Of a stretch of DNA of 64,000 nucleotides, positions 3,182 to 57,824 are shown piece after piece. The notes below the pieces were generated by a model. It saw only the letters and a list, made by a program, of their open reading frames with translations. It searched no databases and was not told the DNA's origin. Where the stretch lies: contig DATEDC010000099.1 of NCBI GenBank assembly GCA_035286585.1, positions 3,068 through 67,067 on the forward strand. The letters are read 5' to 3'. Within the stretch, counting starts at the first letter, position 1. Every line of letters begins with the position of its first letter. This DNA comes from Anaerolineales bacterium (GTDB lineage: Bacteria; Chloroflexota; Anaerolineae; Anaerolineales; UBA4823). The position numbers and the translations under genes are program-made.

Positions 3182-4159
3182 ATGATCATTGTTCAGACCC
3201 CCTTACGGGTAAGTTTCTTTGGCGGTGGCACCGACCTTCCCTCCTATTATCTTGAAGAGGGCGGCTGCGCATTAAGCTCGACCATCGATAAATATGTATT
3301 TATTACGATCAAACACCGTTTCGATAAACTGCTGCGCGTGGGCTGGACGCGGGCAGAGATGGTAGAGTGCGTCGATCAGATTCAACACGAATTGATTCGG
3401 GAGGCCTTCCGGATAACAGGTATACATGAAGGAGTTGAGATCACCACTATGGGAGATATTCCCTCCGCGGGAACTGGCCTGGGGTCATCATCAACGGTCA
3501 CAGTAGGGTCTTTGCATGCCATGTATACATTATTAGGGGAAATCGTGACGGCTGAGCGCCTGGCGCAAGAGGCTTGCAAGATCGAGATTGACATTCTGGG
3601 CAAGCCAATTGGCATACAAGATCAATATATTGTCGCCTATGGCGGTCTTCGGTTTATGGAATTTTACCCGGATGGCAGGGTGAGTTTGCAACGGATTATA
3701 TTGAATGAAGACTCAAGGCGGAAACTCAACGAAAACCTGCTCCTTTTTTACACCGGTATCAGCCGAAGTTCTGACCGCATACTGGTGGACCAGCAACGCA
3801 ACATCAAGAGCAGCTTCGCCGTACTGCGGGAAATGAAAAAGCTGGCATATGTCGCCCGCGAGTCTCTGGATTGTTGTGACATCGATATGATCGGTGAATA
3901 TCTCCATGAAGGCTGGCAGCTCAAAAAGCGCCTATCTGGTTTAATAAGCAATGGCGCCCTGGACGATATATACGCGGCTGCCCGCAAATCGGGAGCGACA
4001 GGCGGCAAGATCACCGGTGCAGGCGGCGGAGGATTTTTATTGCTTTATGTGCCACACGAGCGCCAGGCTGCTGTTCGGGAAGCTCTGCAAGGGCTGCAAG
4101 AGCTGCCATTCCAGCTTGAACCAGATGGCAGCAAGGTAATTTTCAATTACAAACGCTAA
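3182..4159 (+). CDS. GHMP-family sugar kinase, D-glycero-D-manno-heptose 7-phosphate kinase-like (HddA-like)
   Basis: N-terminus MIIVQTPLRVSFFGGGTDLPSYY and GHMP motif PSAGTGLGSSSTVTVG. It starts 2 nt after the previous stop and is followed by a GmhA-like SIS gene. Confidence 0.7.
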   Translation: MIIVQTPLRVSFFGGGTDLPSYYLEEGGCALSSTIDKYVFITIKHRFDKLLRVGWTRAEMVECVDQIQHELIREAFRITGIHEGVEITTMGDIPSAGTGLGSSSTVTVGSLHAMYTLLGEIVTAERLAQEACKIEIDILGKPIGIQDQYIVAYGGLRFMEFYPDGRVSLQRIILNEDSRRKLNENLLLFYTGISRSSDRILVDQQRNIKSSFAVLREMKKLAYVARESLDCCDIDMIGEYLHEGWQLKKRLSGLISNGALDDIYAAARKSGATGGKITGAGGGGFLLLYVPHERQAAVREALQGLQELPFQLEPDGSKVIFNYKR

Positions 4160-26933: not shown

Positions 26934-28365
26934 GGTAGTGTATCTTTCATTCATGAAATACAAAAAGGGACTTGATCAACCTGTAAAATGTGGTTGCTAC
27001 CCCACAAGCCACAGGAGATCAAGTCATGCCGATTGTACCCATTGGGAGCCTTTTTCTGCAAGTACCCGCAAGCGATACACCAAGATTTGCACACGAATTG
27101 TGCGCTGTGCTGGAAGAGCAAATCCGACAAGTGGTTGGGCGCTGCCTGGAAGAAGCATTGGAAACCGAAGTTGAGCGATGGTTGGGGCGAAAGCGGCATG
27201 TGCGCCGACGGAAAACCAAAGGTCAGCGGGTCGAAGTACGCTGTAGCCGGTGCTTCAGTCATGAGCGGCGGCGTTTTCGGCGCAATGGGCACTACCAGCG
27301 TAGATTGGATACCCGCTGGGGACGGGTAAAGATCGACGTTCCGCAGCTGATCTGCGAGTGTGGTGGCAATGTGTGCCTTTCGTTTCGGACTTTGCGACGT
27401 GGGCAGCGCATTTGGCATGATCTGGAATGGGAAGTCCTTGTGAATTATGAGCGAGGCTTGAGCTACCGACAAATCAAAGCAGACTGGGATCAACTTCTGG
27501 GAAGTTCTGTTGGGTTACGCACGCTGAACCGACGAGTGCTGGCACTGGATAGCGACGGTTTGCCAGCCCGTCCTTGGATGAAAGGCGAGGTACCTCCTGT
27601 CGTCCGCCTGGATGGCATCTGGATTACGGTAATGTTCCCGACTGGCAAGACCCATACCGACCGGATGGGACGCAAACGCCTGGTCAAACACGCCAAGAAA
27701 GTCCCCATCCTGGCTGCACAGGGTGTCTGGCCCTTGAGCGAAAAGACCTGCTTGTTGGCCTGGGTTAGAGCGGATGGCGAAGACACTGCCAGTTGGCAGC
27801 AGTTTCTTGAACAATTGTACGAGGCTGGCCTCACCCCCAAGAACGGCTTGGCCTTGCTGGTAGCCGATGGCAGCCCTGGTTTGCTGGCTGCTCGCGAAAA
27901 TGTGTATTGGACGACCCCTTTGCAACGCTGTGTCTTTCACAAACTACGTAACCTCGCCCAAGCCCTCACCTTGCCAGCCAACCTCGATCGCCAGGCGGGA
28001 CGAGGGTATCGTACCCAATTCCTGCGCCAAGCCGCTCACATCTGGCAGGCCTCTACCGAAACCGAAGCCCGCCAGTGTTACGTCGTGTTTTCTCAGCAGT
28101 GGCAATCCGAACAACCGAAAGCCATCCGCACTTTGCAGAACGATTTTGAAGCCACCTTGACCTTCTATGCCGTTCAAGAGCAAGCCGCTGAACGCAACGA
28201 AGTCTGGCCATCTCATTTGCTACGCACCACCAGCCCTTTGGAACGCACCTTCCGGGACTTCCGTCGCCGTTATCGCCTGGCGGTCTTGTTTCACTCCGAT
28301 GCCGGCGCTAGATCTACCACCTCTCAATTGGCTGCCCGTTTTTCATGAACCAAGGATACACTAAC
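26934..28365 (+). mobile_element. IS256-family insertion sequence (1432 bp), apparently intact
   Basis: Terminal inverted repeats GGTAGTGTATCTTTCATTCATGAAA (26934-58) and the reverse complement of 28341-65, GTTAGTGTATCCTTGGTTCATGAAA, are 21/25 identical. It is flanked by the 8-bp direct repeat GATTCTTG. It carries a single Mutator/IS256-type transposase ORF that ends inside IRR. Confidence 0.85.
27026..28348 (+). CDS. IS256-family (Mutator-type) transposase
   Basis: ~440 aa from the ATG at 27026 (AGGAG 8 nt upstream). Family-typical C-terminal region: QRCVFHKLRNLAQAL ... RTTSPLERTFRDFRRR. Confidence 0.85.
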   Translation: MPIVPIGSLFLQVPASDTPRFAHELCAVLEEQIRQVVGRCLEEALETEVERWLGRKRHVRRRKTKGQRVEVRCSRCFSHERRRFRRNGHYQRRLDTRWGRVKIDVPQLICECGGNVCLSFRTLRRGQRIWHDLEWEVLVNYERGLSYRQIKADWDQLLGSSVGLRTLNRRVLALDSDGLPARPWMKGEVPPVVRLDGIWITVMFPTGKTHTDRMGRKRLVKHAKKVPILAAQGVWPLSEKTCLLAWVRADGEDTASWQQFLEQLYEAGLTPKNGLALLVADGSPGLLAARENVYWTTPLQRCVFHKLRNLAQALTLPANLDRQAGRGYRTQFLRQAAHIWQASTETEARQCYVVFSQQWQSEQPKAIRTLQNDFEATLTFYAVQEQAAERNEVWPSHLLRTTSPLERTFRDFRRRYRLAVLFHSDAGARSTTSQLAARFS

Positions 28366-28373
28366 GATTCTTG
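28366..28373. repeat. Right copy of the 8-bp target-site duplication GATTCTTG
   Basis: Identical to 26926-26933. Its last three bases are the TTG of the TTGACA -35 box. Confidence 0.8.
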
Positions 28374-28399
28374 ACATTTCCACCGCCGAAGAGTAAAAT
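28371..28399 (+). promoter_or_regulatory. Sigma-70-type promoter of the aro/tyr operon
   Basis: TTGACA (28371-76), a 17-nt spacer, then TAAAAT (28394-99). It lies 27 nt upstream of the leader ORF start. Confidence 0.55.
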
Positions 28400-28425
28400 T
28401 GCCTTCAATCAAGGACAGCTATCCG

Positions 28426-28509
28426 GTGAACAAAGTCAAGTTCGCTCGTTATTACGCTTACTACTATTATTTCGGCATCGACTCTTCGACTGCCGTTGGT
28501 AGCGTTTAA
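28426..28509 (+). CDS. Candidate 27-aa leader peptide rich in Tyr/Phe (MNKVKFARYYAYYYYFGIDSSTAVGSV)
   Basis: GTG start with AAGGA 10 nt upstream. Codons 28450-28473 read Y Y A Y Y Y Y F. The ORF is followed by an intrinsic terminator and then the aromatic amino acid operon. Confidence 0.55.
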   Translation: MNKVKFARYYAYYYYFGIDSSTAVGSV

Positions 28510-28531
28510 GCGAGCGAAAGCATCTCTTAAC

Positions 28532-28563
28532 AAAAACGCGAGGCTAACGGCCTCGCGTTTTTT
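28532..28563 (+). terminator. Intrinsic terminator (attenuator) between the leader ORF and aroH
   Basis: 8-bp stem CGCGAGGC (28537-44) / GCCTCGCG (28550-57) with a 5-nt loop. An A5 run upstream can extend the stem against the T6 run (28558-63). It sits 33 nt before the aroH ATG. Confidence 0.65.
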
Positions 28564-28595
28564 GCGTTATATGAGTATATTGAGAGGAGGTATAT

Positions 28596-28967
28596 ATGCC
28601 GGTACGCGGTGTACGTGGCGCCACCACCTGTGAGATGGACATACCTGAGGCGATTTACTCCGCCACAGGCGAGCTGCTGCAAGCCATCCTCGATGCCAAC
28701 CTGCAGATGCGACCCGAAGACCTGGCCAGCGCGATATTCACCGTAAGCGATGATCTGGCTTCAGCCTATCCGGCGCGCGCAGCCCGCGATCTGGGCTGGG
28801 AAATGGTACCTTTGCTGTGCGCTCGGGAAATTCCCGTTCCGGGCAGCCTGCCGCGCTGCGTGCGCGTATTGCTGCACTGGAATACCGACCTGCCTCAATC
28901 GGCTATCCGCCATGTGTATCTGGGTCTGGCTGCCAAGCTGCGCCAAGATTTGAGCTCGCTGAGCTGA
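28596..28967 (+). CDS. aroH: Chorismate mutase, AroH (monofunctional trimeric) type
   Basis: MPVRGVRGATT..., 123 aa, colinear with B. subtilis-type AroH. GAGGAGG RBS. Confidence 0.85.
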   Translation: MPVRGVRGATTCEMDIPEAIYSATGELLQAILDANLQMRPEDLASAIFTVSDDLASAYPARAARDLGWEMVPLLCAREIPVPGSLPRCVRVLLHWNTDLPQSAIRHVYLGLAAKLRQDLSSLS

Positions 28968-29072
28968 CAGGCCGTCGATAAGGGCTGGGCAACTGGAGGC
29001 AAACATTTGCTACGCTTTTTGTCGCGCCTTGCTGGCCCTGTCATTCATATTTTTGCCAAGGAGAAAACTACC

Positions 29073-30122
29073 ATGATGATTATTATGCGTACCAACGCCA
29101 CCCCGGAGCAGATCGAAGAGGTGGTCAAGATCGTCCAGGCAAACGGATTGCGCGCTCACCTGTCTACCGGCGACGAGCGCACGGTGATTGGCGCCATTGG
29201 GGATGGACGCCCGGTGCAGAAAGATCAATTCTTCCATTTGCCGGGCGTGGATCGGGTTGTGCCCATTACCCGGCCATACAAGCTTGCCTCCCGCGAGTTC
29301 AAGGAAGCAAACACCGTATTTACTTTAGATGGCGTGACGGTCGGCGGGAATAGTATCGTGATCATCGCCGGTCCGTGCTCGGTGGAAAGCCGGAGCCAGC
29401 TCCTGGAGACAGCCCACGCGGTGCGCGAAGCCGGCGCGCACGCACTGCGCGGGGGCGCTTTCAAGCCGCGCACCTCCCCCTATTCATTTCAAGGCCTGGG
29501 AGAGGTCGCCCTGGAGATCCTGGCCGAAGCGCGCCAGGAAACTGGCCTGCCGATTGTGACTGAAGTGATGGCGATCGAGCAGATCCCCTTGCTGCTGCGC
29601 TATGCCGACGTGCTCCAGATTGGCGCCCGCAACATGCAAAATTACTCCTTGTTGCACGCTGCCGGAGAGAGCCAGCATCCGGTTCTGCTGAAGCGCGGTA
29701 TGTCGGCCACGGTAGAAGAGCTGCTCATGGCAGCCGAGTATATCCTCTCGCATGGCAATCGCCGGGTGATCCTGTGCGAGCGCGGCATCCGCACCTTCGA
29801 GACTACCACGCGCAATACGACCGATATCAATGCCATCCCGGTGTTGAAATCCTTGACCCACCTGCCCGTCCTGCTCGACCCCAGCCACAGCACCGGTTAT
29901 TGGGAGTTTGTCACCGCCATTGCCCGAGCCGGAATTGCCGCCGGCGCGGATGGCTTGCTGGTAGAGGTTCATCCGGACCCGGCTGCGGCTTACTCGGATG
30001 GGGGCCAGTCGCTCAAACCCGAGCGTTTTGCAGAACTGGTGCGCCAGGTCCGCCAGATCGCCCAGGCTGTTGGCCGCAGTGCAGCGCCGACTGTTGAAGC
30101 TGATAAAATTCAGGCTGGCTGA
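29073..30122 (+). CDS. 3-deoxy-7-phosphoheptulonate (DAHP) synthase, type I-beta with an N-terminal ferredoxin-like regulatory domain
   Basis: The N-terminal ~70 aa FL/ACT-like domain ([26 protein letters not shown]) is as in Thermotoga-type DAHPS. Catalytic barrel motifs are [24 protein letters not shown] and DPSH. The ATG at 29073 has an AGGAG RBS. Confidence 0.9.
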
Positions 30123-30997
30123 TGGAAAAACCAAGCGACCTGTCTTCCGTTACCATTGCCATCCTGGGCCTGGGCTTGATGGGGGGCTCGCTTGCCAGGG
30201 CACTGAAAGGCCGCTGCAGGAGGCTCCTGGCTTACGATCCTGACCCCGCAACCCTGGAGCTGGCCCGAGGCGAGCACATCGTCGATCGGGTTGCTTCCGA
30301 GCCGGGGGAAATTCTGCCTGACGCCGACCTGATCATCCTGGCCGCCCCGGTGCGGGCAATTATCACCCTGATCCAGCAATTGCCCGCCTGGCACCCCGGC
30401 GAGCCGGTAGTGATCGATCTGGGCTCCACCAAGGTCCAGGTTTGCCAGGCGCTGGCTGGATTGCCGGGGCGTTTCGATCCGCTTGGCGGGCACCCGATGT
30501 GCGGCAAGTCTGCCCATGGATTGGCGAACGCTGAAGCTGACCTGTTCCGCTACGCACCTTTTGCCTTCACGCCTCTGCCGCGCAGCGGCGAGCGCGCCCG
30601 AACCCTGGCGGTTCAGCTCGCGGAGGCGATCGGCGCTCGACCTCTCTGGCTTGACGCTGAGACGCACGACCGCTGGGTAGCCGCCACCAGCCATGCACCG
30701 TATCTGCTGGCTTGCGCCTTGACCCTGGCCACACCCAGAGAAGCCGCTCCATTGGTGGGACCGGGTTTTCGCAGCGCCAGCCGCCTGGCTGGCAGCTCGG
30801 CGATAATGATGGGCGACATCCTGCGCACCAACCGGGAGAACGTGCTCCTGGCATGCAGCCGGATCAAGGCTGAGCTGAAGGACATCGAGAGATTATTGTT
30901 CGAGGAGGATTACCCCGCCCTGATGAAATTATTGGAGGAGGTTGCAGCATACCGCCAGGCCATGGCAGAGGCTCCCATCCAGGAGACTGGACCATGA
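30122..30997 (+). CDS. tyrA: Prephenate (or arogenate) dehydrogenase
   Basis: NAD motif IAILGLGLMGGSLARAL and catalytic region GGHPMCG. Its start overlaps the DAHPS stop (TGATG). Confidence 0.85.
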   Translation: MEKPSDLSSVTIAILGLGLMGGSLARALKGRCRRLLAYDPDPATLELARGEHIVDRVASEPGEILPDADLIILAAPVRAIITLIQQLPAWHPGEPVVIDLGSTKVQVCQALAGLPGRFDPLGGHPMCGKSAHGLANAEADLFRYAPFAFTPLPRSGERARTLAVQLAEAIGARPLWLDAETHDRWVAATSHAPYLLACALTLATPREAAPLVGPGFRSASRLAGSSAIMMGDILRTNRENVLLACSRIKAELKDIERLLFEEDYPALMKLLEEVAAYRQAMAEAPIQETGP

Positions 30998-32349
30998 GGC
31001 TGACCGTGCAGCCTGGAAATCCTCTACGTGGGGAGATTACTCCTCCAGGTGACAAATCGATTTCACATCGGGCGGCTTTGATTGCCGCCCTGGCAGCAGG
31101 GGAAAGCCGGCTGGGCAATTTTCTGCTCGCTGGCGTCACCCGGTCCATGCTGGACGCCCTAACCGCTCTGGGTGTAACCTGGGAGCTTGACGGTGCCACA
31201 CTGAGCGTTCAGGGAGTGGGCCTGACTGGCTTGCGACCGCCTTCTGCTCCAATTGATTGCGGCCATTCAGCGACAACCATGCGCCTGCTGGCAGGCGCCC
31301 TGGCGGCCGCAGGGATTCCCGCGGTTTTGGACGGCTCGCCTGGCCTGCGCCGCCGCCCGATGGAGCGGATTATCGAGCCGCTGCGCAAGATGGGCGTCCC
31401 GGTCAGCGCAGAAAATGGAAGAGCTCCGCTCGTTTTCAGCCGCCGGGAGGCGCCGCTCGAACCACTGGAATATGCCCTGCCGGTCCCCAGCGCCCAGGTC
31501 AAATCCTGCCTCTTGCTGGCGGGGCTGGCTGCCGGCGGCTCGACTACCCTGACCGAACCCGGACCTTCCCGCGATCACACCGAACGCATGCTCCACAGCC
31601 TGGGCGTAAACGTGGTAAGCGCGAAGCGCAGCGGCAGCCTGAGCTACACGACATGCCTGGCGCCGCCTCGCCCATTCTCCCTTCCGCCTCTGAAGTTTAC
31701 ACTGCCGGGAGATATCTCCGCTGCGGCTTTCCTGATCGTGGCTGCCTTGATCACCCCAGGATCGCAGTTATTGCTGAGAGATGTCCTGCTCAATCCGACC
31801 CGCACCGGCTTTCTGGATGCCCTGCTGGCGATGGGGGCTGACCTGCGCATCTCCCCGGCAGGTGAGCGCCAGGGCGAGCCGCTGGGAGACATCCTCGTGC
31901 TCGCCTCGCCGCTGCGGGCAACGCATGTTTCGGGCTCCCTGGTGGTGCGCATGATCGATGAGTTCCCCGCACTTGCAGTAGCCGCAGCCTGCGCCCGCGG
32001 CCAGACCGTCGTTTCAGACGCCCAGGAATTGCGTTATAAAGAATCTGACCGCATCAACGCCATCTGCACTGAGCTGCAGCTCCTGGGCGTTCGCGCCCAG
32101 GAAACGCCGGATGGGTTCACGATATCTGGCGGGGGCTCCTCTCAGGGCGAGTCCTCGGGACGAGCCTTGCGGGGAGGCGAGGTCGCTTCGCACGGTGATC
32201 ACCGCCTGGCAATGGCGCTGGCCGTCGCCGGGCTGGCGAGCTCGGAGCCGGTGACTGTGCAATCGGCGGAGATCCTGTCCGAATCTTTTCCGGATTTCCC
32301 CGCGGCATTGAAATCTCTCGGAGCGCAGGTGCAGGTTGAACATGGGTGA
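30994..32349 (+). CDS. aroA: 3-phosphoshikimate 1-carboxyvinyltransferase (EPSP synthase)
   Basis: PGDKSISHRA, LPGDISAAAFL, KESDRI and DHRLAMA motifs. ATGA overlap with tyrA. Confidence 0.9.
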   Translation: MRLTVQPGNPLRGEITPPGDKSISHRAALIAALAAGESRLGNFLLAGVTRSMLDALTALGVTWELDGATLSVQGVGLTGLRPPSAPIDCGHSATTMRLLAGALAAAGIPAVLDGSPGLRRRPMERIIEPLRKMGVPVSAENGRAPLVFSRREAPLEPLEYALPVPSAQVKSCLLLAGLAAGGSTTLTEPGPSRDHTERMLHSLGVNVVSAKRSGSLSYTTCLAPPRPFSLPPLKFTLPGDISAAAFLIVAALITPGSQLLLRDVLLNPTRTGFLDALLAMGADLRISPAGERQGEPLGDILVLASPLRATHVSGSLVVRMIDEFPALAVAAACARGQTVVSDAQELRYKESDRINAICTELQLLGVRAQETPDGFTISGGGSSQGESSGRALRGGEVASHGDHRLAMALAVAGLASSEPVTVQSAEILSESFPDFPAALKSLGAQVQVEHG

Positions 32350-33238
32350 AGCCTCCCCAAAATTCTGGCAAATGGGCTTGCTGGGCTATCCCCTGGGGCA
32401 CAGCCTCTCGCCGCGGCTGCATGACTCAGCTTTGCAGGCTGCCGGGCTGGCAGGGGAATACCGCCTGCATGCGCTGCCGCCGGATGCGCCTGTTGAATTG
32501 GAGAGGCTGCTCGACCGGGTTCGCAGGGGCGAAATAGACGGCTTGAACGTAACTATCCCCTACAAACAAATTGTCCTGCCTGACCTGGATGAGCTCACGC
32601 CGGCCGCGGGCGCCATCGGGGCGGTAAACACCATTTACGCCCGCCAGGGCTTACTGGTAGGGGATAACACAGATGCGCCCGGTTTTTTGGCTGACCTGGG
32701 GCGCGTGACGGGATGGTCCCTGGCTGATCTGCGCCCGGCGGGGAGGGTACTACCTACTGCTCTGCTCCTAGGCGCTGGCGGCTCAGCCCGGGCGGTGGCT
32801 TATGCGTTGGGCACCGCCGGCTGGCATGTTTGGGTGGCTGCCCGCCGCCTGGAGCAAGCCCGCGAGCTCACCACCAGCCTGCGCAAGCGAATCTCTGCGC
32901 CCATCCATCACCTGACCCTGGCGAGTCTGCCGGTCTTGTTCAACGCAGTCGCGCCAAAATTCGACCTGCTGGTCAACACCACACCGCTAGGCATGGCGCC
33001 TGAGGTCGCCGCTTCACCCTGGCCGGAACGACTGGAATTTCCACTTGGCGCATTTGTTTACGATCTGGTGTACAATCCACCCGAAACCGCCTTGCTGCGA
33101 GCGGCGCGTGGCGCAGGACTGTCGGCTGCGAACGGACTGGGCATGCTGGTCGAACAGGCAGCCCTGTCTTTCGAACGCTGGACAGGCTGCGTCGCCTCGC
33201 GAGCAGCCATGTACCGGGCGGTTAGCTCAGAATTCTAA
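32342..33238 (+). CDS. aroE: Shikimate 5-dehydrogenase
   Basis: LLGYPLGHSLSPRLHD, GLNVTIPYK, NTD and LLLGAGGSARAV motifs. The start is uncertain among TTG 32336, ATG 32342 and a later ATG. Confidence 0.85.
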   Translation: MGEASPKFWQMGLLGYPLGHSLSPRLHDSALQAAGLAGEYRLHALPPDAPVELERLLDRVRRGEIDGLNVTIPYKQIVLPDLDELTPAAGAIGAVNTIYARQGLLVGDNTDAPGFLADLGRVTGWSLADLRPAGRVLPTALLLGAGGSARAVAYALGTAGWHVWVAARRLEQARELTTSLRKRISAPIHHLTLASLPVLFNAVAPKFDLLVNTTPLGMAPEVAASPWPERLEFPLGAFVYDLVYNPPETALLRAARGAGLSAANGLGMLVEQAALSFERWTGCVASRAAMYRAVSSEF

Positions 33239-33250
33239 GCGGAGTCGTCG

Positions 33251-34435
33251 ATGCTTTCCCCTGCTCGCCGCCTGGAGCGCTCATCCACGCAGTTCTTCGC
33301 CTCGCTCAACCAGCAGGTAGCCAGGCTCCAGTCCACCGGGAAGGAGGTCATCCGCCTGGACGTGGGCTCACCAGACCTGCCGCCCGCTGCTCACATTATC
33401 CAGGCTCTGGCGCAGGCTGCCTCCCGTCCGGACCGGCATGGCTACCAATCCCACAACGCCACGCCCGCCCTGCGGGCTGCCTGGGCGGGGATGTATCTGC
33501 GCCTGTATGGGGTGGAGCTGGATCCTGAGGCCCAGGTCGTCCCGCTTTTAGGCTCCAAGGAGGGCATCTTTCATCTGTCCCTGGCGCTGGTGGAGGAGGG
33601 AGAGTTCGTCTTGATCCCCGATCCCGGCTACCTGACCTACACCCAGGGCGCCCTGCTGAGCGGTGGAGCGCCGTACTACCTGCCCCTCACCCCCGAGCGC
33701 GGATTTTTACCTGACCTGGCGGGGATTCCGCCGGAGGTTGCCCGCCGCGCCCGGCTGCTGTGGTTAAATTACCCCAACAACCCCACCGCGGCGATAGCGC
33801 CGCCAGAGTTCTTTGTCGAGGCGGTTGAGTTTGCCAGAAGGTACGATCTGCTGGTCTGTCACGATGCAGCCTATGCACAGGTCGCTTTCGACGGCTACCG
33901 ACCTCCCAGCCTGTTAGAGGTCCCAGGTGCAGAGGAGATCGCAATCGAGTTCAACACCCTGTCCAAATCACACAACATGGCGGGCTGGCGGGTAGGCGCT
34001 GCCCTGGGCAACCCTGAAGCGCTGCGCCTGCTTTACAAGGTCAAGACGAACGCCGACAGCGGGCATTTTTTGCCGATCCTGGAGGCTGCCACGGCTGCGC
34101 TGAGCGGAGACCAGAGCTGGCTGGAAGAGCGCAACGAGATCTACAGCCGGCGGCGCGACCTGCTGGTCGCCGGCCTGCGCCGCCTGGGATTCGCGGTGGA
34201 GAGCCCGCGAGCCTCTCTCTACGTCTGGTGCCCGGTCCCTGATGGGTGGAGTTCCAGCGAGTTCGCAGCCGCTTTGCTCGAGGAGGCGTATGTCAGCCTT
34301 ACGCCAGGCGTAGTTTTTGGACCAGGCGGCGAAGGGTTTGTGCGCATCACCCTGACCCAGACGGAAGAGCGCCTGGCGGTAGCCCTGCAGCGCCTGGAGA
34401 ACTGGATTTCGAAGGGAGGTCAGCGTGCCGCTTAG
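33251..34435 (+). CDS. Class I/II PLP-dependent aminotransferase (candidate aromatic/prephenate aminotransferase)
   Basis: NYPNNPTAA and the FNTLSKSHNMAGWRVG PLP-lysine motif. It is embedded in the aro/tyr operon. Confidence 0.8.
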   Translation: MLSPARRLERSSTQFFASLNQQVARLQSTGKEVIRLDVGSPDLPPAAHIIQALAQAASRPDRHGYQSHNATPALRAAWAGMYLRLYGVELDPEAQVVPLLGSKEGIFHLSLALVEEGEFVLIPDPGYLTYTQGALLSGGAPYYLPLTPERGFLPDLAGIPPEVARRARLLWLNYPNNPTAAIAPPEFFVEAVEFARRYDLLVCHDAAYAQVAFDGYRPPSLLEVPGAEEIAIEFNTLSKSHNMAGWRVGAALGNPEALRLLYKVKTNADSGHFLPILEAATAALSGDQSWLEERNEIYSRRRDLLVAGLRRLGFAVESPRASLYVWCPVPDGWSSSEFAAALLEEAYVSLTPGVVFGPGGEGFVRITLTQTEERLAVALQRLENWISKGGQRAA

Positions 34436-35612
34436 ATTTCTCACCGCAGGCGAATCTCATGGACCTGCCCTGACGGCGATCCTGGAAGGTTTGCCGGCAG
34501 GATTAACCGTCAAAGCTGAGCAGATCGATGCCGAGCTCGCCCGCCGCCAGCGAGGTTACGGCGCCGGGCCACGGATGAAAATCGAGCAGGATCGGGCGCG
34601 CATCCTGGCGGGCGTCATGCAGGGAGTGACTACTGGCTCCCCTCTGGCTTTACGAATCGAAAACCGCGATCACGCAAGATGGCGCGGACGGGCAATCGAG
34701 CCTCTCACCATTCCGCGACCAGGCCACGCCGACCTTACCGGAGCGTTGAAATATGGCTACCGCGATCTCCGTCCCGCCCTGGAGCGCGCCTCCGCCCGTG
34801 AGACCGCAGCCCGTGTGGCGGTCGGCGCGGTTTGCAAGCAACTGCTCGCTCAATTTGACATGCAAATCGGCGGCTACGTGGTAGCGATTGGCGAGATCGA
34901 GGCCGACCTGGAGTCTCTATCCCTGGTCGAGCGCCTGGAGCGGTCTGAGGAATCGGAGGTGCGCTGCCCGGACGCTCAGGCTGCCCAGGCGATGCGCCAG
35001 CGCATCGAGGAGATCATCCGCCTGCGTGACACGCTTGGGGGGGTGCTCGAGATCGTCGCGCTGGGCGTGCCGCCGGGGTTGGGGTCGTACATGCATTGGG
35101 ACCGCCGCCTGGAGACGCGCCTGGGCGCGGCCGTGCTGAGCGTGCCGGCGATCAAGGGCGTGGAGATCGGGCCGGCGTTCCGAAACGCCCGCCTGCCCGG
35201 CACGCAGGTCCAGGATGCCATCCGGTTGGAAAGGGGAGAGCTGACTCGCGAGAGCAACCGCGCCGGAGGAGTGGAAGGGGGTATTACCAACGGGCAGCCA
35301 CTGCTGATCCGGGCGGCGATGAAACCCATCGCCACCACGCTCACGCCGCAGAAATCCGTCGATCTGGCGCAAGGCCGCCGGGTTGACACCCAGTACGAGC
35401 GGTCGGACTTTTGCCCGGTGCCGCGGGCGGTGCCTATTTTAGAAGCGGTGATTGCCTTTGTGCTTGCCGACGCCCTGCTTGAAAAACTCGGCGGCGATTC
35501 GCTGGATGAGATGCTGCCGCGCTTTTCTGCGCTGCGCCGCGCCCGCCTATCCGACCTGCCGATGGACGATATTGCGCACACATTTTGGCCTGAAGAAGCG
35601 GATGATGACTGA
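34425..35612 (+). CDS. aroC: Chorismate synthase
   Basis: LRFLTAGESHGPAL, GRSSARETAARVA-like (ERASARETAARVA) and GGISNG-like (EGGITNG) motifs. GTG start with GGGAGG upstream. Confidence 0.9.
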   Translation: MPLRFLTAGESHGPALTAILEGLPAGLTVKAEQIDAELARRQRGYGAGPRMKIEQDRARILAGVMQGVTTGSPLALRIENRDHARWRGRAIEPLTIPRPGHADLTGALKYGYRDLRPALERASARETAARVAVGAVCKQLLAQFDMQIGGYVVAIGEIEADLESLSLVERLERSEESEVRCPDAQAAQAMRQRIEEIIRLRDTLGGVLEIVALGVPPGLGSYMHWDRRLETRLGAAVLSVPAIKGVEIGPAFRNARLPGTQVQDAIRLERGELTRESNRAGGVEGGITNGQPLLIRAAMKPIATTLTPQKSVDLAQGRRVDTQYERSDFCPVPRAVPILEAVIAFVLADALLEKLGGDSLDEMLPRFSALRRARLSDLPMDDIAHTFWPEEADDD

Positions 35613-37215
35613 TCGGCAATTTGCCGCAAGCGATAAGCCGCCTCTCCATGCCCCTCTCTTCCTGTATGGCCCCCCCGGTTCGGGAAAAAGTGCCTTGGGC
35701 AAGGCACTGGCACAGGCCCTGAATTTACCATTTTGTGACCTGGATGAGGAAATAGAAGCTCGTACCGGGCAGAGCATCGCTCAGATTTTCTCCCAGCAGG
35801 GCGAAGAGGCTTTCCGCCGGCTCGAGAGAGAAATGCTGGAAAAATACCTGGAGAGAAAAGAACGGGTGGTCGCGCTGGGCGGCGGCGCCTTGCTGGACCC
35901 CGGCTCGCGCCTCAGGGTAGAAGCTTCCGGGCGGGTGATCTGCCTGCGCGCCTCTCTCACGCTGCTGCTAGAGCGCCTGAGATCGGAGGCAGAGAGGCGC
36001 CCATTATTAGCTGGAGAGCTTTATAACCAACTGGCGGATATATTGGCCAAGCGCGAGGGGCATTACGCCTCCTTTTCCATTCAACTCGATGTGGACGGCA
36101 AATCCCCGGGTGACCTGGCCTGGCAGGCGCAGGTGCTGCTGGGGCGCTATCACCTGAGAGGCATGGCGAGCGGACTTTTCCCCGGCTGCGAAGTTCGCGT
36201 CCAGGCTGGTAGCCTGGTTGAAGTGGGTGAATGCCTGCGCATCGACGGCCTGGGCGGCCCGGTTGCTGTGGTCAGCGATGCAAACGTCGCCCGGTTGTAC
36301 GCCCCCCAGGTGATGAAATCTTTGGAGGAGACCGGTTACGCAGCCAGCCTGGTGGAGATCCCCGCAGGAGAAGAGCAGAAAAACCTGAGGACTGTTGAGC
36401 GCCTGTGGGCGAGCTTTCTGACCGTGGGGCTGGATCGCGCTGGCACGGTCGTTGCCCTGGGCGGGGGGGTGGTAGGGGATTTAGCCGGCTTTGCAGCGGC
36501 GATATACCTGCGTGGGGTAGGCTGGGTTTCTGTTCCCACCACTTTGCTGAGCATGGTGGATGCCAGCCTGGGGGGCAAAACCGGCGTCGACCTGCCGCAG
36601 GGCAAGAACCTGGTCGGTTCTTTCCACCCGCCGCGCCTGGTTTTGGCAGACCCTGATACCCTTGAGTCTTTGCCCCCCGAAGAGCTGCGCAGCGGCATGG
36701 CTGAAGCGATCAAGCATGGCTTGATCGCCGACCCCGAGCTTTTTTCGCGCTGCGCCCAGGGCTGGGATGCGGTCGCCGCGGACTGGGATTGGCTGGTGCG
36801 ACGGGCAATGGCGGTCAAAATCCAGATTATCGAAGCCGATCCGTACGAGCGCGGCCGCCGCGCGGCGCTCAATCTCGGTCACACCCTGGGACACGCCATC
36901 GAACGGGCTTCGGATTACCGCCTGCGTCATGGCGAGGCGGTGGCGATTGGCATGCTCGCCGCTGCCCGGCTGGCTGTTCGCCTGGAGATGGCCCCGGCAG
37001 AGCTGGCATCCCGGCTTGAAGCCGTCCTGCGCGGCCTGGGGTTGCCGCGGCGCATCCCGGAAAACCTGGATCGGGATAAGATCCTGGAATACATGGGTGT
37101 GGATAAAAAGCGCGCTGGCGGGAAGCCTCGCTTCGTCCTCCCTGTGGGCGTGGGCGAGGTGCGTGACGGGATCGAGGTGGACGATCCCGCCCTGATATTT
37201 GAAGAGGTAACCTGA
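35602..37215 (+). CDS. aroK/aroB: Bifunctional shikimate kinase / 3-dehydroquinate synthase
   Basis: N-terminal P-loop LYGPPGSGKSALGKALA...FCDLDEEIE (shikimate kinase). C-terminal DHQS motifs: GGGVVGDLAGFAAA, PTTLLSMVDASLGGKTGVD and LNLGHTLGHAIE. The ATG at 35602 overlaps the aroC end, and the ORF-track N-terminal extension is unlikely. Confidence 0.85.
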   Translation: MMTDRQFAASDKPPLHAPLFLYGPPGSGKSALGKALAQALNLPFCDLDEEIEARTGQSIAQIFSQQGEEAFRRLEREMLEKYLERKERVVALGGGALLDPGSRLRVEASGRVICLRASLTLLLERLRSEAERRPLLAGELYNQLADILAKREGHYASFSIQLDVDGKSPGDLAWQAQVLLGRYHLRGMASGLFPGCEVRVQAGSLVEVGECLRIDGLGGPVAVVSDANVARLYAPQVMKSLEETGYAASLVEIPAGEEQKNLRTVERLWASFLTVGLDRAGTVVALGGGVVGDLAGFAAAIYLRGVGWVSVPTTLLSMVDASLGGKTGVDLPQGKNLVGSFHPPRLVLADPDTLESLPPEELRSGMAEAIKHGLIADPELFSRCAQGWDAVAADWDWLVRRAMAVKIQIIEADPYERGRRAALNLGHTLGHAIERASDYRLRHGEAVAIGMLAAARLAVRLEMAPAELASRLEAVLRGLGLPRRIPENLDRDKILEYMGVDKKRAGGKPRFVLPVGVGEVRDGIEVDDPALIFEEVT

Positions 37216-37655
37216 TGCACAAAATCCTTGTTCTTCACGGGCCGAATCTCAACCTGCTCGGAACTCGCGAGCCGGAAGTATATGGCTCGCTGACACTGGC
37301 GGAGATCGATGAAAGACTGGTCGCCGCGGGTGAGAAACTAGGCCTGGAAATCCGCTCGTTCCAATCCAACAGCGAGGGCGCCCTGATCGATGCCCTGCAG
37401 GAGGCGCGCAACTGGGCTAGCGGGGTGATTTTCAACCCCGGCGGGTATACCCACACCTCGGTCGCCCTGCGCGATGCGGTGACCGCCATCGGCATACCGG
37501 TGATCGAGGTCCACCTGTCGAATGTCTACGCCCGGGAAGAGTTTCGCCAGCATTCGATGATCTCTGCCGCCTGCAAAGGGAAGATCGTCGGCTTCGGCTG
37601 GCGCTCTTACTGGCTGGCGCTTTACGCGCTGAGAGAAATGTTGGCAGCAACTTAG
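37215..37655 (+). CDS. aroQ: Type II 3-dehydroquinate dehydratase
   Basis: ILVLHGPNLNLLGTREPEVYG, FQSNSEGALID, NPGGYTHTSVALRDA and EVHLSN motifs. Confidence 0.9.
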   Translation: MHKILVLHGPNLNLLGTREPEVYGSLTLAEIDERLVAAGEKLGLEIRSFQSNSEGALIDALQEARNWASGVIFNPGGYTHTSVALRDAVTAIGIPVIEVHLSNVYAREEFRQHSMISAACKGKIVGFGWRSYWLALYALREMLAAT

Positions 37656-57628: not shown

Positions 57629-57644
57629 TTCGCAGCAAATGATT

Positions 57645-57802
57645 GATCTCCGAGCCGGGCAGCCTGTAGCCTGATATGGTTATGGTTGCCAGGCCGGTCG
57701 CTGAGGCGACCCAGGCCGGTGGTGGAAATACACCGACCTCCCGAAATTCTTTTCGCTACGGGGAAGGCTGCCGTTGCGAGGAATGGAATTGGAAAGGAGA
57801 CG
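57645..57802 (+). ncRNA. Candidate molybdenum-cofactor (Moco-type) riboswitch aptamer
   Basis: From memory of the Moco RNA motif: 5' CUCCGAGCC, internal CACCGACCUCCC and 3' GGAAAGGAG. The helices visible are:
- P1: UCUCC (57647-51) / GGAGA (57796-800)
- Inner helix: GGCAGCC (57658-64) / GGCUGCC (57766-72)
- Hairpin: GGUCGC-UGAG-GCGACC
Not verified with a covariance model. Confidence 0.5.
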
Positions 57803-57824
57803 ACCAAATGTTCGCTTTTGCATG

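What the first reader, a model, noticed from the sequence alone, without database searches (positions are those of the whole stretch)
28371..28595. Tyrosine-codon leader peptide plus intrinsic terminator in front of a complete shikimate-to-tyrosine operon (candidate ribosome-mediated attenuator)
Seen directly:
- A near-consensus promoter: TTGACA, 17 nt, TAAAAT.
- A 27-codon ORF (GTG 28426 to TAA 28507-09, AAGGA 10 nt upstream) encoding MNKVKFARYYAYYYYFGIDSSTAVGSV. Six Tyr and one Phe fall in eight consecutive codons (28450-28473).
- 27 nt after the stop, an 8-bp GC hairpin (28537-44 / 28550-57) flanked by A5 and T6. It sits 33 nt before aroH.

Candidate alternative pairings found by eye:
- 28455-62 with 28498-504, which places the Tyr codons in segment 1.
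- 28500-07 with 28534-41, which would sequester the 5' arm of the terminator.
- A 10-bp helix of 28441-50 with 28509-18.

This is the trp/phe/his-type attenuator layout. The operon behind it encodes chorismate mutase, DAHP synthase, prephenate dehydrogenase, EPSPS, shikimate DH, an aminotransferase, chorismate synthase, shikimate kinase/DHQ synthase and dehydroquinase. It has no prephenate dehydratase and no trp genes, so it covers exactly the route to tyrosine, which matches the Tyr codon run. The DAHPS also carries the N-terminal ferredoxin-like allosteric domain, so the pathway would be controlled at two levels. I do not know of a described Tyr-specific leader-peptide attenuator governing a whole shikimate operon, least of all in this kind of organism.
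Basis: partly seen in the sequence, partly recalled or inferred. Interest (0 to 1): 0.8.

Follow-up and report, generated by a model that had tools for sequence, protein, structure and literature searches.

The report
Tyrosine/phenylalanine leader-peptide attenuator of aro operon
A 27-codon mini-gene packed with tyrosine codons, followed by a transcription stop signal, sits in front of the aromatic amino-acid operon of an uncultured Anaerolineales (Chloroflexota) bacterium and has the anatomy of a classical ribosome-sensing attenuator; the same element occurs in more than 120 related genomes and I found no earlier description of it.

Summary
The promoter, the GTG-started 27-codon ORF (YYAYYYYF run) and the A5-hairpin-U6 terminator are all present.

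The interpretation as a trp/phe/his-type attenuator holds up in silico:
- The free RNA folds as 1:2 plus a 3:4 terminator.
- Masking the RNA a ribosome would cover at the Tyr codons lets 28492-28506 pair with 28535-28551. That pairing uses the terminator's 5' arm, its loop and the first bases of its 3' arm.
- A ribosome at the stop codon covers segment 2, so the terminator forms.

The element is conserved in front of the same aro operon in 128 distinct Anaerolineales leaders.
- Run codons are strictly U-[A/U]-[C/U], that is Tyr or Phe only.
- Compensatory changes support both the terminator and the antiterminator.
- The segment-2 nucleotides persist even where the reading frame shifts.
- A covariance model built without the window hits it at 90.5 bits (E 8e-22).

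"Tyr-specific" is only partly supported. Family-wide the run is Tyr 493, Phe 375, Trp 54 in front of the same operon architecture, and the window lies at the Tyr-rich end. Rfam has no matching family and I found no prior description. The closest known analogues are C. glutamicum aroR and E. coli pheL. No experimental evidence exists.

The parts
28371..28376 (+). -35 hexamer TTGACA
   Evidence: TTGACN is conserved with a 17-nt spacer in 124 of 128 related leaders. It is rebuilt by the 8-bp target duplication of the upstream IS.
28394..28399 (+). -10 hexamer TAAAAT
   Evidence: TANNNT is conserved in relatives. The inferred transcription start is about 28406.
28411..28415 (+). Shine-Dalgarno-like AAGGA of the leader ORF
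   Evidence: The nearest relative L087 has AGGA at the same place. Many other family members have no SD and only 10 nt between the -10 and the ATG, which looks leaderless.
28426..28509 (+). Leader ORF, 27 codons (GTG to TAA): MNKVKFARYYAYYYYFGIDSSTAVGSV
   Evidence: Homologous short ORFs occur in about 130 relatives.
28450..28473 (+). Regulatory codon run Tyr-Tyr-Ala-Tyr-Tyr-Tyr-Tyr-Phe
   Evidence: In the family alignment the run codons have U at position 1 in 91-100% of sequences (invariant in two codons). Position 2 is almost only A or U, and position 3 is almost only C or U.
28441..28481 (+). Segment 1: the 5' strands of the anti-antiterminator helices (28441-50, 28454-58, 28460-63, 28473-81). 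It overlaps the Tyr codons and the footprint of a stalled ribosome.
   Evidence: Free-RNA MFE. The inner hairpin is supported by covariation (helix 1).
28486..28518 (+). Segment 2: pairs with segment 1 in free RNA and with segment 3 when segment 1 is covered. It contains the conserved GCCGUUGGNNGCGYUUAA and the stop codon.
   Evidence: The nucleotides are conserved even in leaders read in a shifted frame (the RLPLAALK variants).
28535..28551 (+). Segment 3 as used by the antiterminator: 28535-39 pairs with 28502-06 and 28543-51 pairs with 28492-28500.
   Evidence: Constrained folds give -24.6 kcal/mol with a ribosome at the last Tyr codons and the 3' arm not yet made. The duplex is -21.0 kcal/mol, z = -3.6 against shuffled segment 2. 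Across the family 88% of cells are paired against 36-49% in slid controls.
28532..28563 (+). Intrinsic terminator: 14-bp stem 28532-45:28549-62 (GC core 28537-44:28550-57), loop 28546-48, U-run 28558-63
   Evidence: A homologous hairpin plus U-run was found in 148 related leaders, and 92.7% of cells pair with 12 pairs showing double changes (helix 2).
28596..37655 (+). Regulated operon: aroH-type chorismate mutase (28596-28967), DAHPS with FXD domain (29073-30122), prephenate/arogenate DH (30122-30997), EPSPS (30994-32349), shikimate DH (32336-33238), aminotransferase (33251-34435), chorismate synthase (34425-35612), shikimate kinase-DHQ synthase fusion (ends 37215), type II dehydroquinase (37215-37655)
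   Evidence: Pfam and NCBIfam. The same gene order occurs in relatives.

Best explanation
This is a classical ribosome-mediated (leader-peptide) transcription attenuator for the aromatic amino-acid operon.

Proposed mechanism:
1. Transcription starts about 28406 from a near-consensus sigma-70-type promoter.
2. A ribosome initiates at GTG 28426 and translates a 27-codon leader whose codons 9-16 are Tyr-Tyr-Ala-Tyr-Tyr-Tyr-Tyr-Phe.
3. If Tyr-tRNA (and Phe-tRNA) is well charged, the ribosome runs to the stop codon at 28507-09 and covers segment 2 (28491-28518). If the leader is not translated at all, segment 2 stays locked to segment 1 (28441-81). In both cases the hairpin 28532-62 plus U6 forms and transcription ends about 28563, before aroH.
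4. If charged Tyr-tRNA is scarce, the ribosome stalls in 28450-73 and covers segment 1. Segment 2 is then free to pair with 28535-51, which is the terminator's 5' arm, loop and first 3' arm bases, before the 3' arm is made. The terminator cannot form, and RNA polymerase reads into aroH, DAHPS, tyrA and the rest of the shikimate genes.

Shown here: the sequence elements, their mutual exclusivity, their conservation and their covariation.
Inferred: translation of the ORF, the stall, termination and read-through, and which amino acid is actually sensed.

The window's version is the Tyr-rich form of a family that generally mixes Tyr and Phe, often with one Trp.
For: 1. Anatomy in the window is as described.
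2. Constrained folds:
   - Free RNA gives 1:2 plus the terminator (-59.4 kcal/mol).
   - Masking the RNA up to a footprint edge of 28464-28485 and transcribing only to 28552 gives 28492-28500:28543-51 plus 28502-06:28535-39 (-24.6 to -26.5 kcal/mol).
   - Masking as for a ribosome at the stop codon leaves only the terminator.
3. Conservation:
   - A short ORF with an aromatic run lies 70-160 nt upstream of the first operon gene in about 70 of 80 genome loci and about 75 of 80 metagenome loci.
   - A terminator hairpin follows in 148 of them.
   - In L062, where DAHPS comes first, the leader sits in front of DAHPS.
4. Coding signature: run codons are U-[A/U]-[C/U], so only Tyr or Phe and never Leu or stop.
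5. RNA-level constraint: segment 2 (GCCGUUGGNGGCGCUUAA) is kept in about 15 leaders whose frame is shifted by a 1-nt indel.
6. Covariation:
   - Terminator plus inner 1:2 hairpin: 89% paired, 270 double-change cells against 91 in shuffles, slid controls 33-52%.
   - Antiterminator: 88% paired against 36-49% slid, 58 double-change cells against 12 (0/500 shuffles). An example is G-C to A-U at columns 92:155.
7. The same three-state behaviour appears in 125-128 of 128 leaders.
8. A covariance model built without the window or L087 hits the window once, at 28447-28565, with 90.5 bits and E 8e-22.
9. The promoter is conserved and is native. It is identical in IS-free alleles.
Against: - No transcriptome, Term-seq, ribosome-profiling or reporter data exist for this organism or any relative, so every dynamic step is inferred.
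- With the whole leader transcribed and the ribosome stalled, the terminator conformer is still about 9 kcal/mol more stable than the antiterminator conformer (-33.9 against -24.6 kcal/mol). Read-through must therefore depend on kinetics, as it does in E. coli trp (my own knowledge).
- The covariation shuffle control can be inflated by relatedness of the sequences. Two of its measures (pairs and types) are only marginal for the antiterminator (27/500 and 24/500).
- The outer 1:2 helix could not be tested because the 5' ends align poorly between lineages.
- Amino-acid specificity is not established. The operon also makes chorismate and prephenate for Phe and Trp. The C. glutamicum Phe-Tyr-Phe leader responds to Phe only.
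Confidence: 0.85

Rival explanations
1. It is the same attenuator, but the effective signal is phenylalanine or general aromatic amino-acid starvation rather than tyrosine. The Tyr-rich run of the window would then be neutral drift within a Tyr/Phe-interchangeable family.
For: - Family-wide the run mixes Tyr 493, Phe 375 and Trp 54, and 38 of 127 leaders have more Phe than Tyr.
- Operon architecture does not change with the Tyr/Phe ratio.
- C. glutamicum aroR (Phe-Tyr-Phe) responds to Phe and not to Tyr.
- The operon feeds all three aromatic branches.
Against: - The window has 6 Tyr and only 2 Phe codons, and one of the Phe codons lies before the run.
- The last four codons before the conserved Gly are Tyr in 73% of family cells.
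- The operon carries the Tyr-branch dehydrogenase but no prephenate dehydratase.
Confidence: 0.1
2. The conserved RNA is a terminator/antiterminator switch operated by something other than a translating ribosome, such as a T-box-like tRNA contact, a metabolite-binding riboswitch or an RNA-binding protein. The short ORF would be incidental.
For: - The RNA structure and segment 2 are conserved at the nucleotide level, independent of frame in about 15 leaders.
- T-boxes are known in Chloroflexi (PMC3766115). In Firmicutes tyrosine genes are T-box regulated (PMC1262725).
Against: - No T-box or any other Rfam family matches, even at E <= 10.
- The run shows strict codon periodicity U-[A/U]-[C/U], which a non-coding U/A-rich tract would not show.
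- An in-frame start and stop are always present, and the stop always lies in or just after segment 2.
- Nothing between the helices looks like a conserved ligand pocket. The linker between the stop and the terminator is variable.
Confidence: 0.04
3. The short ORF encodes a functional aromatic-rich micropeptide, or the terminated about 160-nt transcript is a trans-acting small RNA. Its position before the aro operon would be secondary.
For: - The peptide C-terminus AVGGA and the Arg and Gly flanking the run are conserved.
- Attenuator-derived sRNAs and leader peptides with trans functions are known in Sinorhizobium (PMC6614838 and PMC7298713, listed).
Against: - C-terminal conservation is explained by RNA pairing and survives frameshifts that change the peptide to RLPLAALK.
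- The N-terminus and the length vary freely.
- The element always sits at the 5' end of the operon, and no second copy occurs in 505 kb of related loci.
- A trans role would add to attenuation rather than replace it.
Confidence: 0.03
4. It is a chance combination: a promoter-like site, a short frame and the terminator of the upstream transposase gene.
For: - The hairpin is symmetric (A5...U6).
- A transposase gene ends 190 nt upstream, at 28348.
Against: - IS-free alleles carry the identical promoter, ORF and terminator next to a divergently oriented glycosyltransferase gene.
- The element is conserved in more than 120 other genomes.
- The held-out model gives E 8e-22.
Confidence: 0.01

Closest known systems
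Corynebacterium glutamicum aroR leader peptide upstream of aroF (DAHP synthase), Neshat et al. 2014, as summarised in PMC11802643
   Same: - A leader-peptide transcription attenuator in front of a DAHP-synthase-containing operon.
- Its regulatory codons are a mix of Phe and Tyr.
- It lies outside the Proteobacteria.
   Different: - aroR has only Phe-Tyr-Phe and was reported to respond to Phe, not Tyr.
- The present leader has 6 Tyr and 1 Phe in 8 codons and governs nine genes: the whole shikimate pathway, chorismate mutase and the Tyr branch.
- The phyla differ (Actinomycetota against Chloroflexota).
- Sequence homology was not tested, because I had no aroR sequence, and it is not expected.
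E. coli pheL-pheA attenuator (Rfam Phe_leader RF01859) and the trpL/hisL/leuL/thrL class
   Same: - The four-segment logic is the same: 1:2 anti-antiterminator overlapped by the regulatory codons, 2:3 antiterminator, 3:4 intrinsic terminator, and a stop codon placed so that a terminating ribosome covers segment 2.
- The distance from the regulatory codons to the U-run is about 90-110 nt, similar to trp (my own knowledge of trpL).
   Different: - No sequence or structure match to any Rfam leader family.
- The codons are Tyr-dominated.
- pheL controls a single bifunctional gene of the Phe branch, whereas this element controls the common pathway plus the Tyr branch.
- Many family members appear leaderless.
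Leaderless leader-peptide attenuators of Deinococcus deserti (PMC4007540) and the polycysteine short ORFs of mycobacteria (bioRxiv 10.1101/834739)
   Same: In about 55 of the 128 relatives the -10 hexamer ends 6-12 nt before the ATG (exactly 10 nt in 44) with no SD. The leader ORF would then start at or within 1-3 nt of the mRNA 5' end, as in those systems.
   Different: - The window's own leader has a spacing of 26 nt and an AAGGA SD, so it is probably not leaderless.
- The amino acid sensed differs.
- The mycobacterial Cys ORFs were not described as classical terminator/antiterminator switches (abstract only).
T-box riboswitches with a Tyr specifier in front of aro and tyr genes in Firmicutes
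   Same: Both sense tRNA charging for tyrosine to control aromatic biosynthesis genes by antitermination. T-boxes also exist in Chloroflexi.
   Different: - There is no T-box match.
- Sensing here would go through a translating ribosome, not through direct tRNA-RNA contact.

Membership tests
Classical ribosome-mediated (leader-peptide) transcription attenuators | Promoter-proximal short ORF with a usable translation start | tested here: met
   GTG 28426 lies 10 nt after AAGGA and about 20 nt after the inferred transcription start. An in-frame start is present in 124 of 128 relatives.
Classical ribosome-mediated (leader-peptide) transcription attenuators | Cluster of codons for the amino acid made by the regulated pathway | tested here: met
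   6 Tyr and 1 Phe fall in 8 codons. Run codons across the family are restricted to UAY and UUY. The operon makes chorismate, prephenate and the Tyr branch.
Classical ribosome-mediated (leader-peptide) transcription attenuators | Intrinsic terminator between the leader ORF and the first structural gene | tested here: met
   The 14-bp stem 28532-45:28549-62 with U6 ends 32 nt before aroH. It is conserved and covaries.
Classical ribosome-mediated (leader-peptide) transcription attenuators | Antiterminator (2:3) mutually exclusive with the terminator | tested here: met
   28492-28506 pairs with 28535-51, which overlaps the terminator's 5' arm, loop and 3 nt of its 3' arm. Across the family 88% of cells are paired, with compensatory changes.
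Classical ribosome-mediated (leader-peptide) transcription attenuators | Anti-antiterminator (1:2) whose 5' strand lies under a ribosome stalled at the regulatory codons, with a stop codon placed so that a terminating ribosome covers segment 2 | tested here: met
   The 1:2 helices 28441-81 / 28486-28518 flank and overlap the run 28450-73, and the stop at 28507-09 lies inside segment 2. 126 of 128 relatives show 1:2 in free RNA and 128 of 128 form the terminator with a ribosome at the stop. The outer helix could not be tested for covariation.
Classical ribosome-mediated (leader-peptide) transcription attenuators | Amino-acid- or tRNA-charging-dependent read-through that requires leader translation | not testable with these tools
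   This needs Term-seq or RNA-seq, reporters or in vitro coupled transcription-translation.
Anaerolineales aro-operon leader family defined here (model R1) | Significant match to a covariance model built from 127 other leaders, with the window and its nearest relative held out | tested here: met
   Window 28447-28565 scores 90.5 bits, E 8.1e-22, over the full model length, and is the only sense-strand hit in 64 kb.
Rfam leader families (Phe_leader RF01859, Trp_leader, His_leader and others) | Covariance-model score at or near the family gathering threshold | tested here: not met
   No leader family appears at E <= 10 in the window region. In the relative L013, Phe_leader scores 16 bits on the wrong strand against a gathering score of 55.
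T-box riboswitch (RF00230) | Match to the T-box model (specifier loop, T-box sequence) | tested here: not met
   No T-box hit at E <= 10.
C. glutamicum aroR | Sequence homology of the leader peptide or RNA | not tested
Only the functional description was read.

The most novel reading that the evidence does not exclude
This is an undescribed family of leader-peptide attenuators found across the Anaerolineae, and the first in which tyrosine codons dominate.
- It governs the entire shikimate, chorismate mutase and Tyr-branch operon.
- Within the family the codon run has been retuned repeatedly between Phe-rich, mixed Phe/Tyr/Trp and almost pure Tyr versions. The window is one of the Tyr versions.
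- In close to half of the members the leader ORF is translated from a leaderless or nearly leaderless mRNA.
Probability: 0.55. Interest if true: 0.6.

Novelty: new member of a known kind. Interest (0 to 1): 0.5.

Why it matters
- It would give the first regulatory RNA element I know of for amino-acid biosynthesis in Anaerolineae. This is an abundant but poorly cultured class of Chloroflexota in sediments, aquifers and digesters. It would also extend classical attenuation to another phylum.
- Tyrosine is usually sensed by TyrR-type repressors or by T-boxes. A Tyr-dominated leader peptide fills a gap in the set of amino acids known to be read out by ribosome stalling.
- The family of 128 distinct sequences has clear covariation. 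It is ready to become a curated RNA family and would improve annotation of MAGs.
- The natural series from Phe-rich to Tyr-rich leaders in front of one operon architecture is a ready-made experiment on how attenuator specificity evolves.
- The mechanism itself is textbook, so conceptually this is an extension and not a surprise.

Tried and rejected
1. Rfam scans of the window region, the whole window and a typical relative found no leader, T-box or riboswitch family. The whole-window scan found only a Moco riboswitch at 57636-57815.
2. The simple terminator scan did not list the hairpin. I judged this a scanner artefact, probably caused by the A5/U6 stem extension using up the U tail.
3. I looked for a link between the Tyr/Phe ratio of the leader and operon content. 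None was found within Anaerolineales, where the order CM-DAHPS(-DAHPS)-PDH-EPSPS-SDH is the same throughout. Prephenate dehydratase appears only in more distant Chloroflexota, either fused to aroH or as a separate gene, and those have different leaders.
4. In one search I forced a single antiterminator pair and got -14 kcal/mol. The forced pair was out of register, so that number is disregarded. The unconstrained stalled-state fold (-24.6 kcal/mol) is used instead.
5. Covariation of the outer 1:2 helix could not be assessed, because the 5' parts of the ORFs align poorly between lineages.
6. Six literature searches found no description of this element. The 2010 survey by Lopatovskaya, Seliverstov and Lyubetsky (PubMed 20198868) is not held, so prior prediction there cannot be excluded.
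7. I rejected the idea that the hairpin terminates the upstream transposase gene, because IS-free alleles carry it unchanged.
8. I searched for extra copies of the element in front of other genes. There were none in the window or in 505 kb of related loci.
Full report
OBSERVATION

- TTGACA 28371-76, a 17-nt spacer and TAAAAT 28394-99.
- AAGGA 28411-15, 10 nt before GTG 28426.
- A 27-codon ORF ending at TAA 28507-09 that encodes MNKVKFARYYAYYYYFGIDSSTAVGSV. Codons 28450-73 read Tyr-Tyr-Ala-Tyr-Tyr-Tyr-Tyr-Phe.
- The hairpin CGCGAGGC/GCCUCGCG (28537-44 / 28550-57) between A5 and U6, ending 32 nt before the aroH ATG at 28596.

The promoter match (11/12) is the best in the surrounding 13 kb. The leader folds far better than shuffled sequence: -59.5 kcal/mol, z = -5.1. 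It is the only short frame with at least 6 of 8 aromatic codons in all six frames of the 64-kb window.

Pfam confirms the operon: AroH-type chorismate mutase, DAHP synthase with the ferredoxin-like N-terminal domain, prephenate dehydrogenase, EPSPS, shikimate dehydrogenase, an aminotransferase, chorismate synthase, a shikimate kinase-DHQ synthase fusion and type II dehydroquinase. There is no prephenate dehydratase and there are no trp genes.

ORGANISM AND LOCAL CONTEXT

AroH homologues carry the names Anaerolineales or Chloroflexota. Identical copies of the locus occur in metagenome assemblies (ENA and Logan runs and two JGI samples).

The gene upstream (26990-28348) is a Mutator/IS256-family transposase. 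The element spans 26934-28365, with imperfect terminal inverted repeats and an 8-bp target duplication GATTCTTG at 26926-33 and 28366-73. It landed inside the -35 region, and the duplication rebuilds TTGACA.

IS-free alleles of the same strain (L002, L006) carry an identical promoter, leader and terminator. There the upstream neighbour is a divergently oriented glycosyltransferase gene. The element is therefore native to the aro operon and is not the transposase's terminator.

STRUCTURES IN THE WINDOW

Free RNA:
- 1:2 helices 28441-50:28509-18, 28454-58:28501-05, 28460-63:28497-500, 28473-77:28491-95 and 28478-81:28486-89.
- Terminator 28532-45:28549-62 plus the U-run.

Stalled ribosome: I masked the RNA up to a 3' footprint edge of 28464-28485 (A site on a Tyr or Phe codon plus 12 nt) and let transcription reach only 28552.
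- 28492-28500 (GCCGUUGGU) pairs with 28543-51 (GCUAACGGC).
- 28502-06 pairs with 28535-39.
- The energy is -24.6 to -26.5 kcal/mol.
- This consumes the terminator's 5' arm, its loop and the first three bases of its 3' arm, so the two structures cannot coexist.

Ribosome at the stop codon: segment 2 is masked and only the terminator forms.

Once the 3' arm exists, the terminator conformer is the more stable one (-33.9 against -24.6 kcal/mol). The decision must therefore be kinetic. To my knowledge the same is true of E. coli trp.

The upper and stronger half was missed.

COMPARATIVE EVIDENCE

One scan of GTDB species genomes and one of JGI metagenomes with AroH gave 160 loci.
- About 145 of them have a short ORF with an aromatic run 70-160 nt upstream of the first operon gene.
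- 148 leaders are followed by a GC-rich hairpin with a U tail.
- The common form is M-L-K-S-A-R-W-F-A-F-Y-F-Y-Y-G-F-R-x-S-V-A-V-G-G-A-stop.
- In L062 DAHPS precedes aroH, and the leader sits before DAHPS. The element therefore tracks the operon's 5' end.
- Planctomycete loci with a similar AroH lack it.

The alignment of 128 distinct leaders (A3) shows three things.

1. The run is under codon-level selection. Codon position 1 is U in 91-100% of sequences and invariant in two codons. Position 2 is almost only A or U. Position 3 is almost only C or U. That means Tyr or Phe, and never Leu or stop.

2. The conserved C-terminal AVGGA-stop is really a conserved RNA segment, GCCGUUGGNGGCGCUUAA. About 15 leaders have a 1-nt indel upstream and read it as RLPLAALK with a later stop, yet keep the nucleotides.

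3. Both conformers covary.
   - Inner 1:2 hairpin plus terminator: 89.1% of cells paired (slid controls 33-52%), and 270 double-change cells against 91 in shuffles.
   - Antiterminator: 88.3% paired (slid controls 36-49%), and 58 double-change cells against 12.4, with 0/500 shuffles reaching that. One example is GUUAGC in segment 2 matched by GCUAAC in the terminator loop. A clade with GCUGCCGGC has its terminator loop changed to GCCCGCAGC.
   - The shuffle control can be inflated by relatedness. The slid controls and the clade-specific compensations are the more convincing part.

Folding every leader gives the same three states:
- terminator in free RNA, 128 of 128;
- segment 2 paired upstream, 126 of 128;
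- at least 8 bp of 2:3 pairing in the stalled state, 125 of 128;
- terminator with a ribosome at the stop, 128 of 128.
The set was selected for having a hairpin, so the first figure is partly by construction.

A covariance model built from 127 leaders, without the window and without its 89%-AroH relative L087, gives these results:
- It finds the window element at 28447-28565 with 90.5 bits, E 8e-22, as the only sense-strand hit in 64 kb.
- It finds the held-out L087, L088, L062, L049 and L066.
- It finds no second copy in 505 kb of related loci.

PROMOTER AND START OF THE LEADER

TTGACN-17-TANNNT is present in 124 of 128 leaders.
- In 44 the -10 hexamer ends exactly 10 nt before the ATG, and in about 55 the gap is 6-12 nt. 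No SD is present, so the leader ORF would be at or within a few bases of the mRNA 5' end.
- This inferred leaderless arrangement has precedents in Deinococcus deserti (PMC4007540) and in mycobacteria (10.1101/834739).
- The window and L087 belong to a second class with 20-40 nt between the -10 and the start (26 nt in the window) and an SD-like AAGGA or AGGA.

SPECIFICITY

The family-wide counts in the best 10-residue window are Tyr 493, Phe 375 and Trp 54. Tyr exceeds Phe in 63 leaders, equals it in 26 and is lower in 38. The four codons before the conserved Gly are Tyr in 73% of cells.

The window (6 Tyr, 1 Phe) lies in the Tyr-rich tail, together with L087, L090, L098, L154 and L158.

Operon architecture (CM, one or two DAHPS, PDH, EPSPS, SDH) is the same whatever the ratio. 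More distant Chloroflexota have prephenate dehydratase fused to AroH (L054 type) or as a separate gene (Caldilineaceae). They have different aromatic leaders that score only 15-21 bits.

In C. glutamicum the Phe-Tyr-Phe leader aroR responds to Phe and not to Tyr (PMC11802643). I therefore treat 'mainly Tyr-responsive' for the window as likely but unproven.

COMPARISON WITH KNOWN SYSTEMS

Functionally this is the trpL/pheL/hisL mechanism, and every structural criterion of that class is met. It is not a member of any curated RNA family. No Rfam leader, T-box or riboswitch model matches, even at E <= 10.

The closest known analogues are aroR-aroF of C. glutamicum and pheL-pheA of E. coli. A 2005 survey states that tyrosine genes are regulated at the RNA level by T-boxes, while Phe, His and Thr use attenuators (PMC1262725).

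Six full-text searches found no description of a leader-peptide attenuator in Chloroflexi or Anaerolineae. One relevant survey (PubMed 20198868) could not be read.

VERDICT

No experimental evidence exists.

The element is a new and widespread member of a well-known kind of regulator. Its notable points are Tyr-dominated codons, control of a nine-gene shikimate/Tyr operon, presence throughout Anaerolineales, and apparent leaderless translation in many members.

Confidence that it works as a ribosome-mediated attenuator is 0.85. Interest is 0.5.

Noticed in passing
window 26934-28365 (target duplications 26926-33 and 28366-73): An IS256/Mutator-family insertion sequence (transposase 26990-28348, imperfect terminal inverted repeats) has inserted into the -35 region of the aro promoter. 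The 8-bp duplication GATTCTTG rebuilds TTGACA, so only the sequence upstream of -35 is replaced. The insertion is polymorphic: L001, L003 and L005 carry it, while L002 and L006 do not. Its effect on promoter strength, or through read-through transcription from the IS, is unknown.
   Followed up: yes
L007-L166, upstream of the leader ORFs (for example L013 about 3735-3789): In about 55 of the 128 related leaders the -10 hexamer ends 6-12 nt before the ATG (exactly 10 nt in 44). It is followed by a conserved (A/T)GCGCCCAAY and no Shine-Dalgarno, which implies leaderless or nearly leaderless leader ORFs. The window belongs to the other class, with a spacing of 26 nt and an SD.
   Followed up: partly
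window 57636-57815 (+): A molybdenum/tungsten cofactor (Moco) riboswitch scores 54.1 bits against a gathering score of 36. It is the only Rfam hit in the window at gathering thresholds.
   Followed up: no
window 33251-34435 (+): The aminotransferase inside the aro operon scores best against LL-diaminopimelate aminotransferase-like NCBIfam models (472 bits, below the 507 cutoff) and not against a named aromatic aminotransferase. It could be a prephenate aminotransferase, which would mean an arogenate route to Tyr. That is my own inference and was not tested.
   Followed up: partly
L007, L014-L016, L019, L020, L023, L024, L026, L028, L029 and others, downstream of aroH: Many relatives carry two tandem DAHP synthase paralogues after aroH, where the window has one.
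   Followed up: no
L054:4001-5212, also L058, L064, L074 and L084; L069:4455-5447: In more distant Chloroflexota the AroH-type chorismate mutase is fused to prephenate dehydratase plus an ACT domain. In Caldilineaceae a separate PDT-ACT gene follows aroH. These operons have different aromatic leader ORFs, such as EDYFGYFYYAYA and GFSFGNFWFGYYFG. A terminator is present, but they match model R1 only weakly.
   Followed up: partly
window 35452-37215 (+): Shikimate kinase and 3-dehydroquinate synthase are fused in one ORF (SKI domain residues 75-213, DHQS residues 301-553). The longest ORF overlaps the end of chorismate synthase by 160 nt, so the true start is probably later.
   Followed up: no
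L013:3912-3995 and similar positions in L008, L035 and L029: Some relatives have a long, very stable GC-rich hairpin inserted between the attenuator terminator and aroH, which lengthens that spacer to 140-150 nt. The window lacks it.
   Followed up: no
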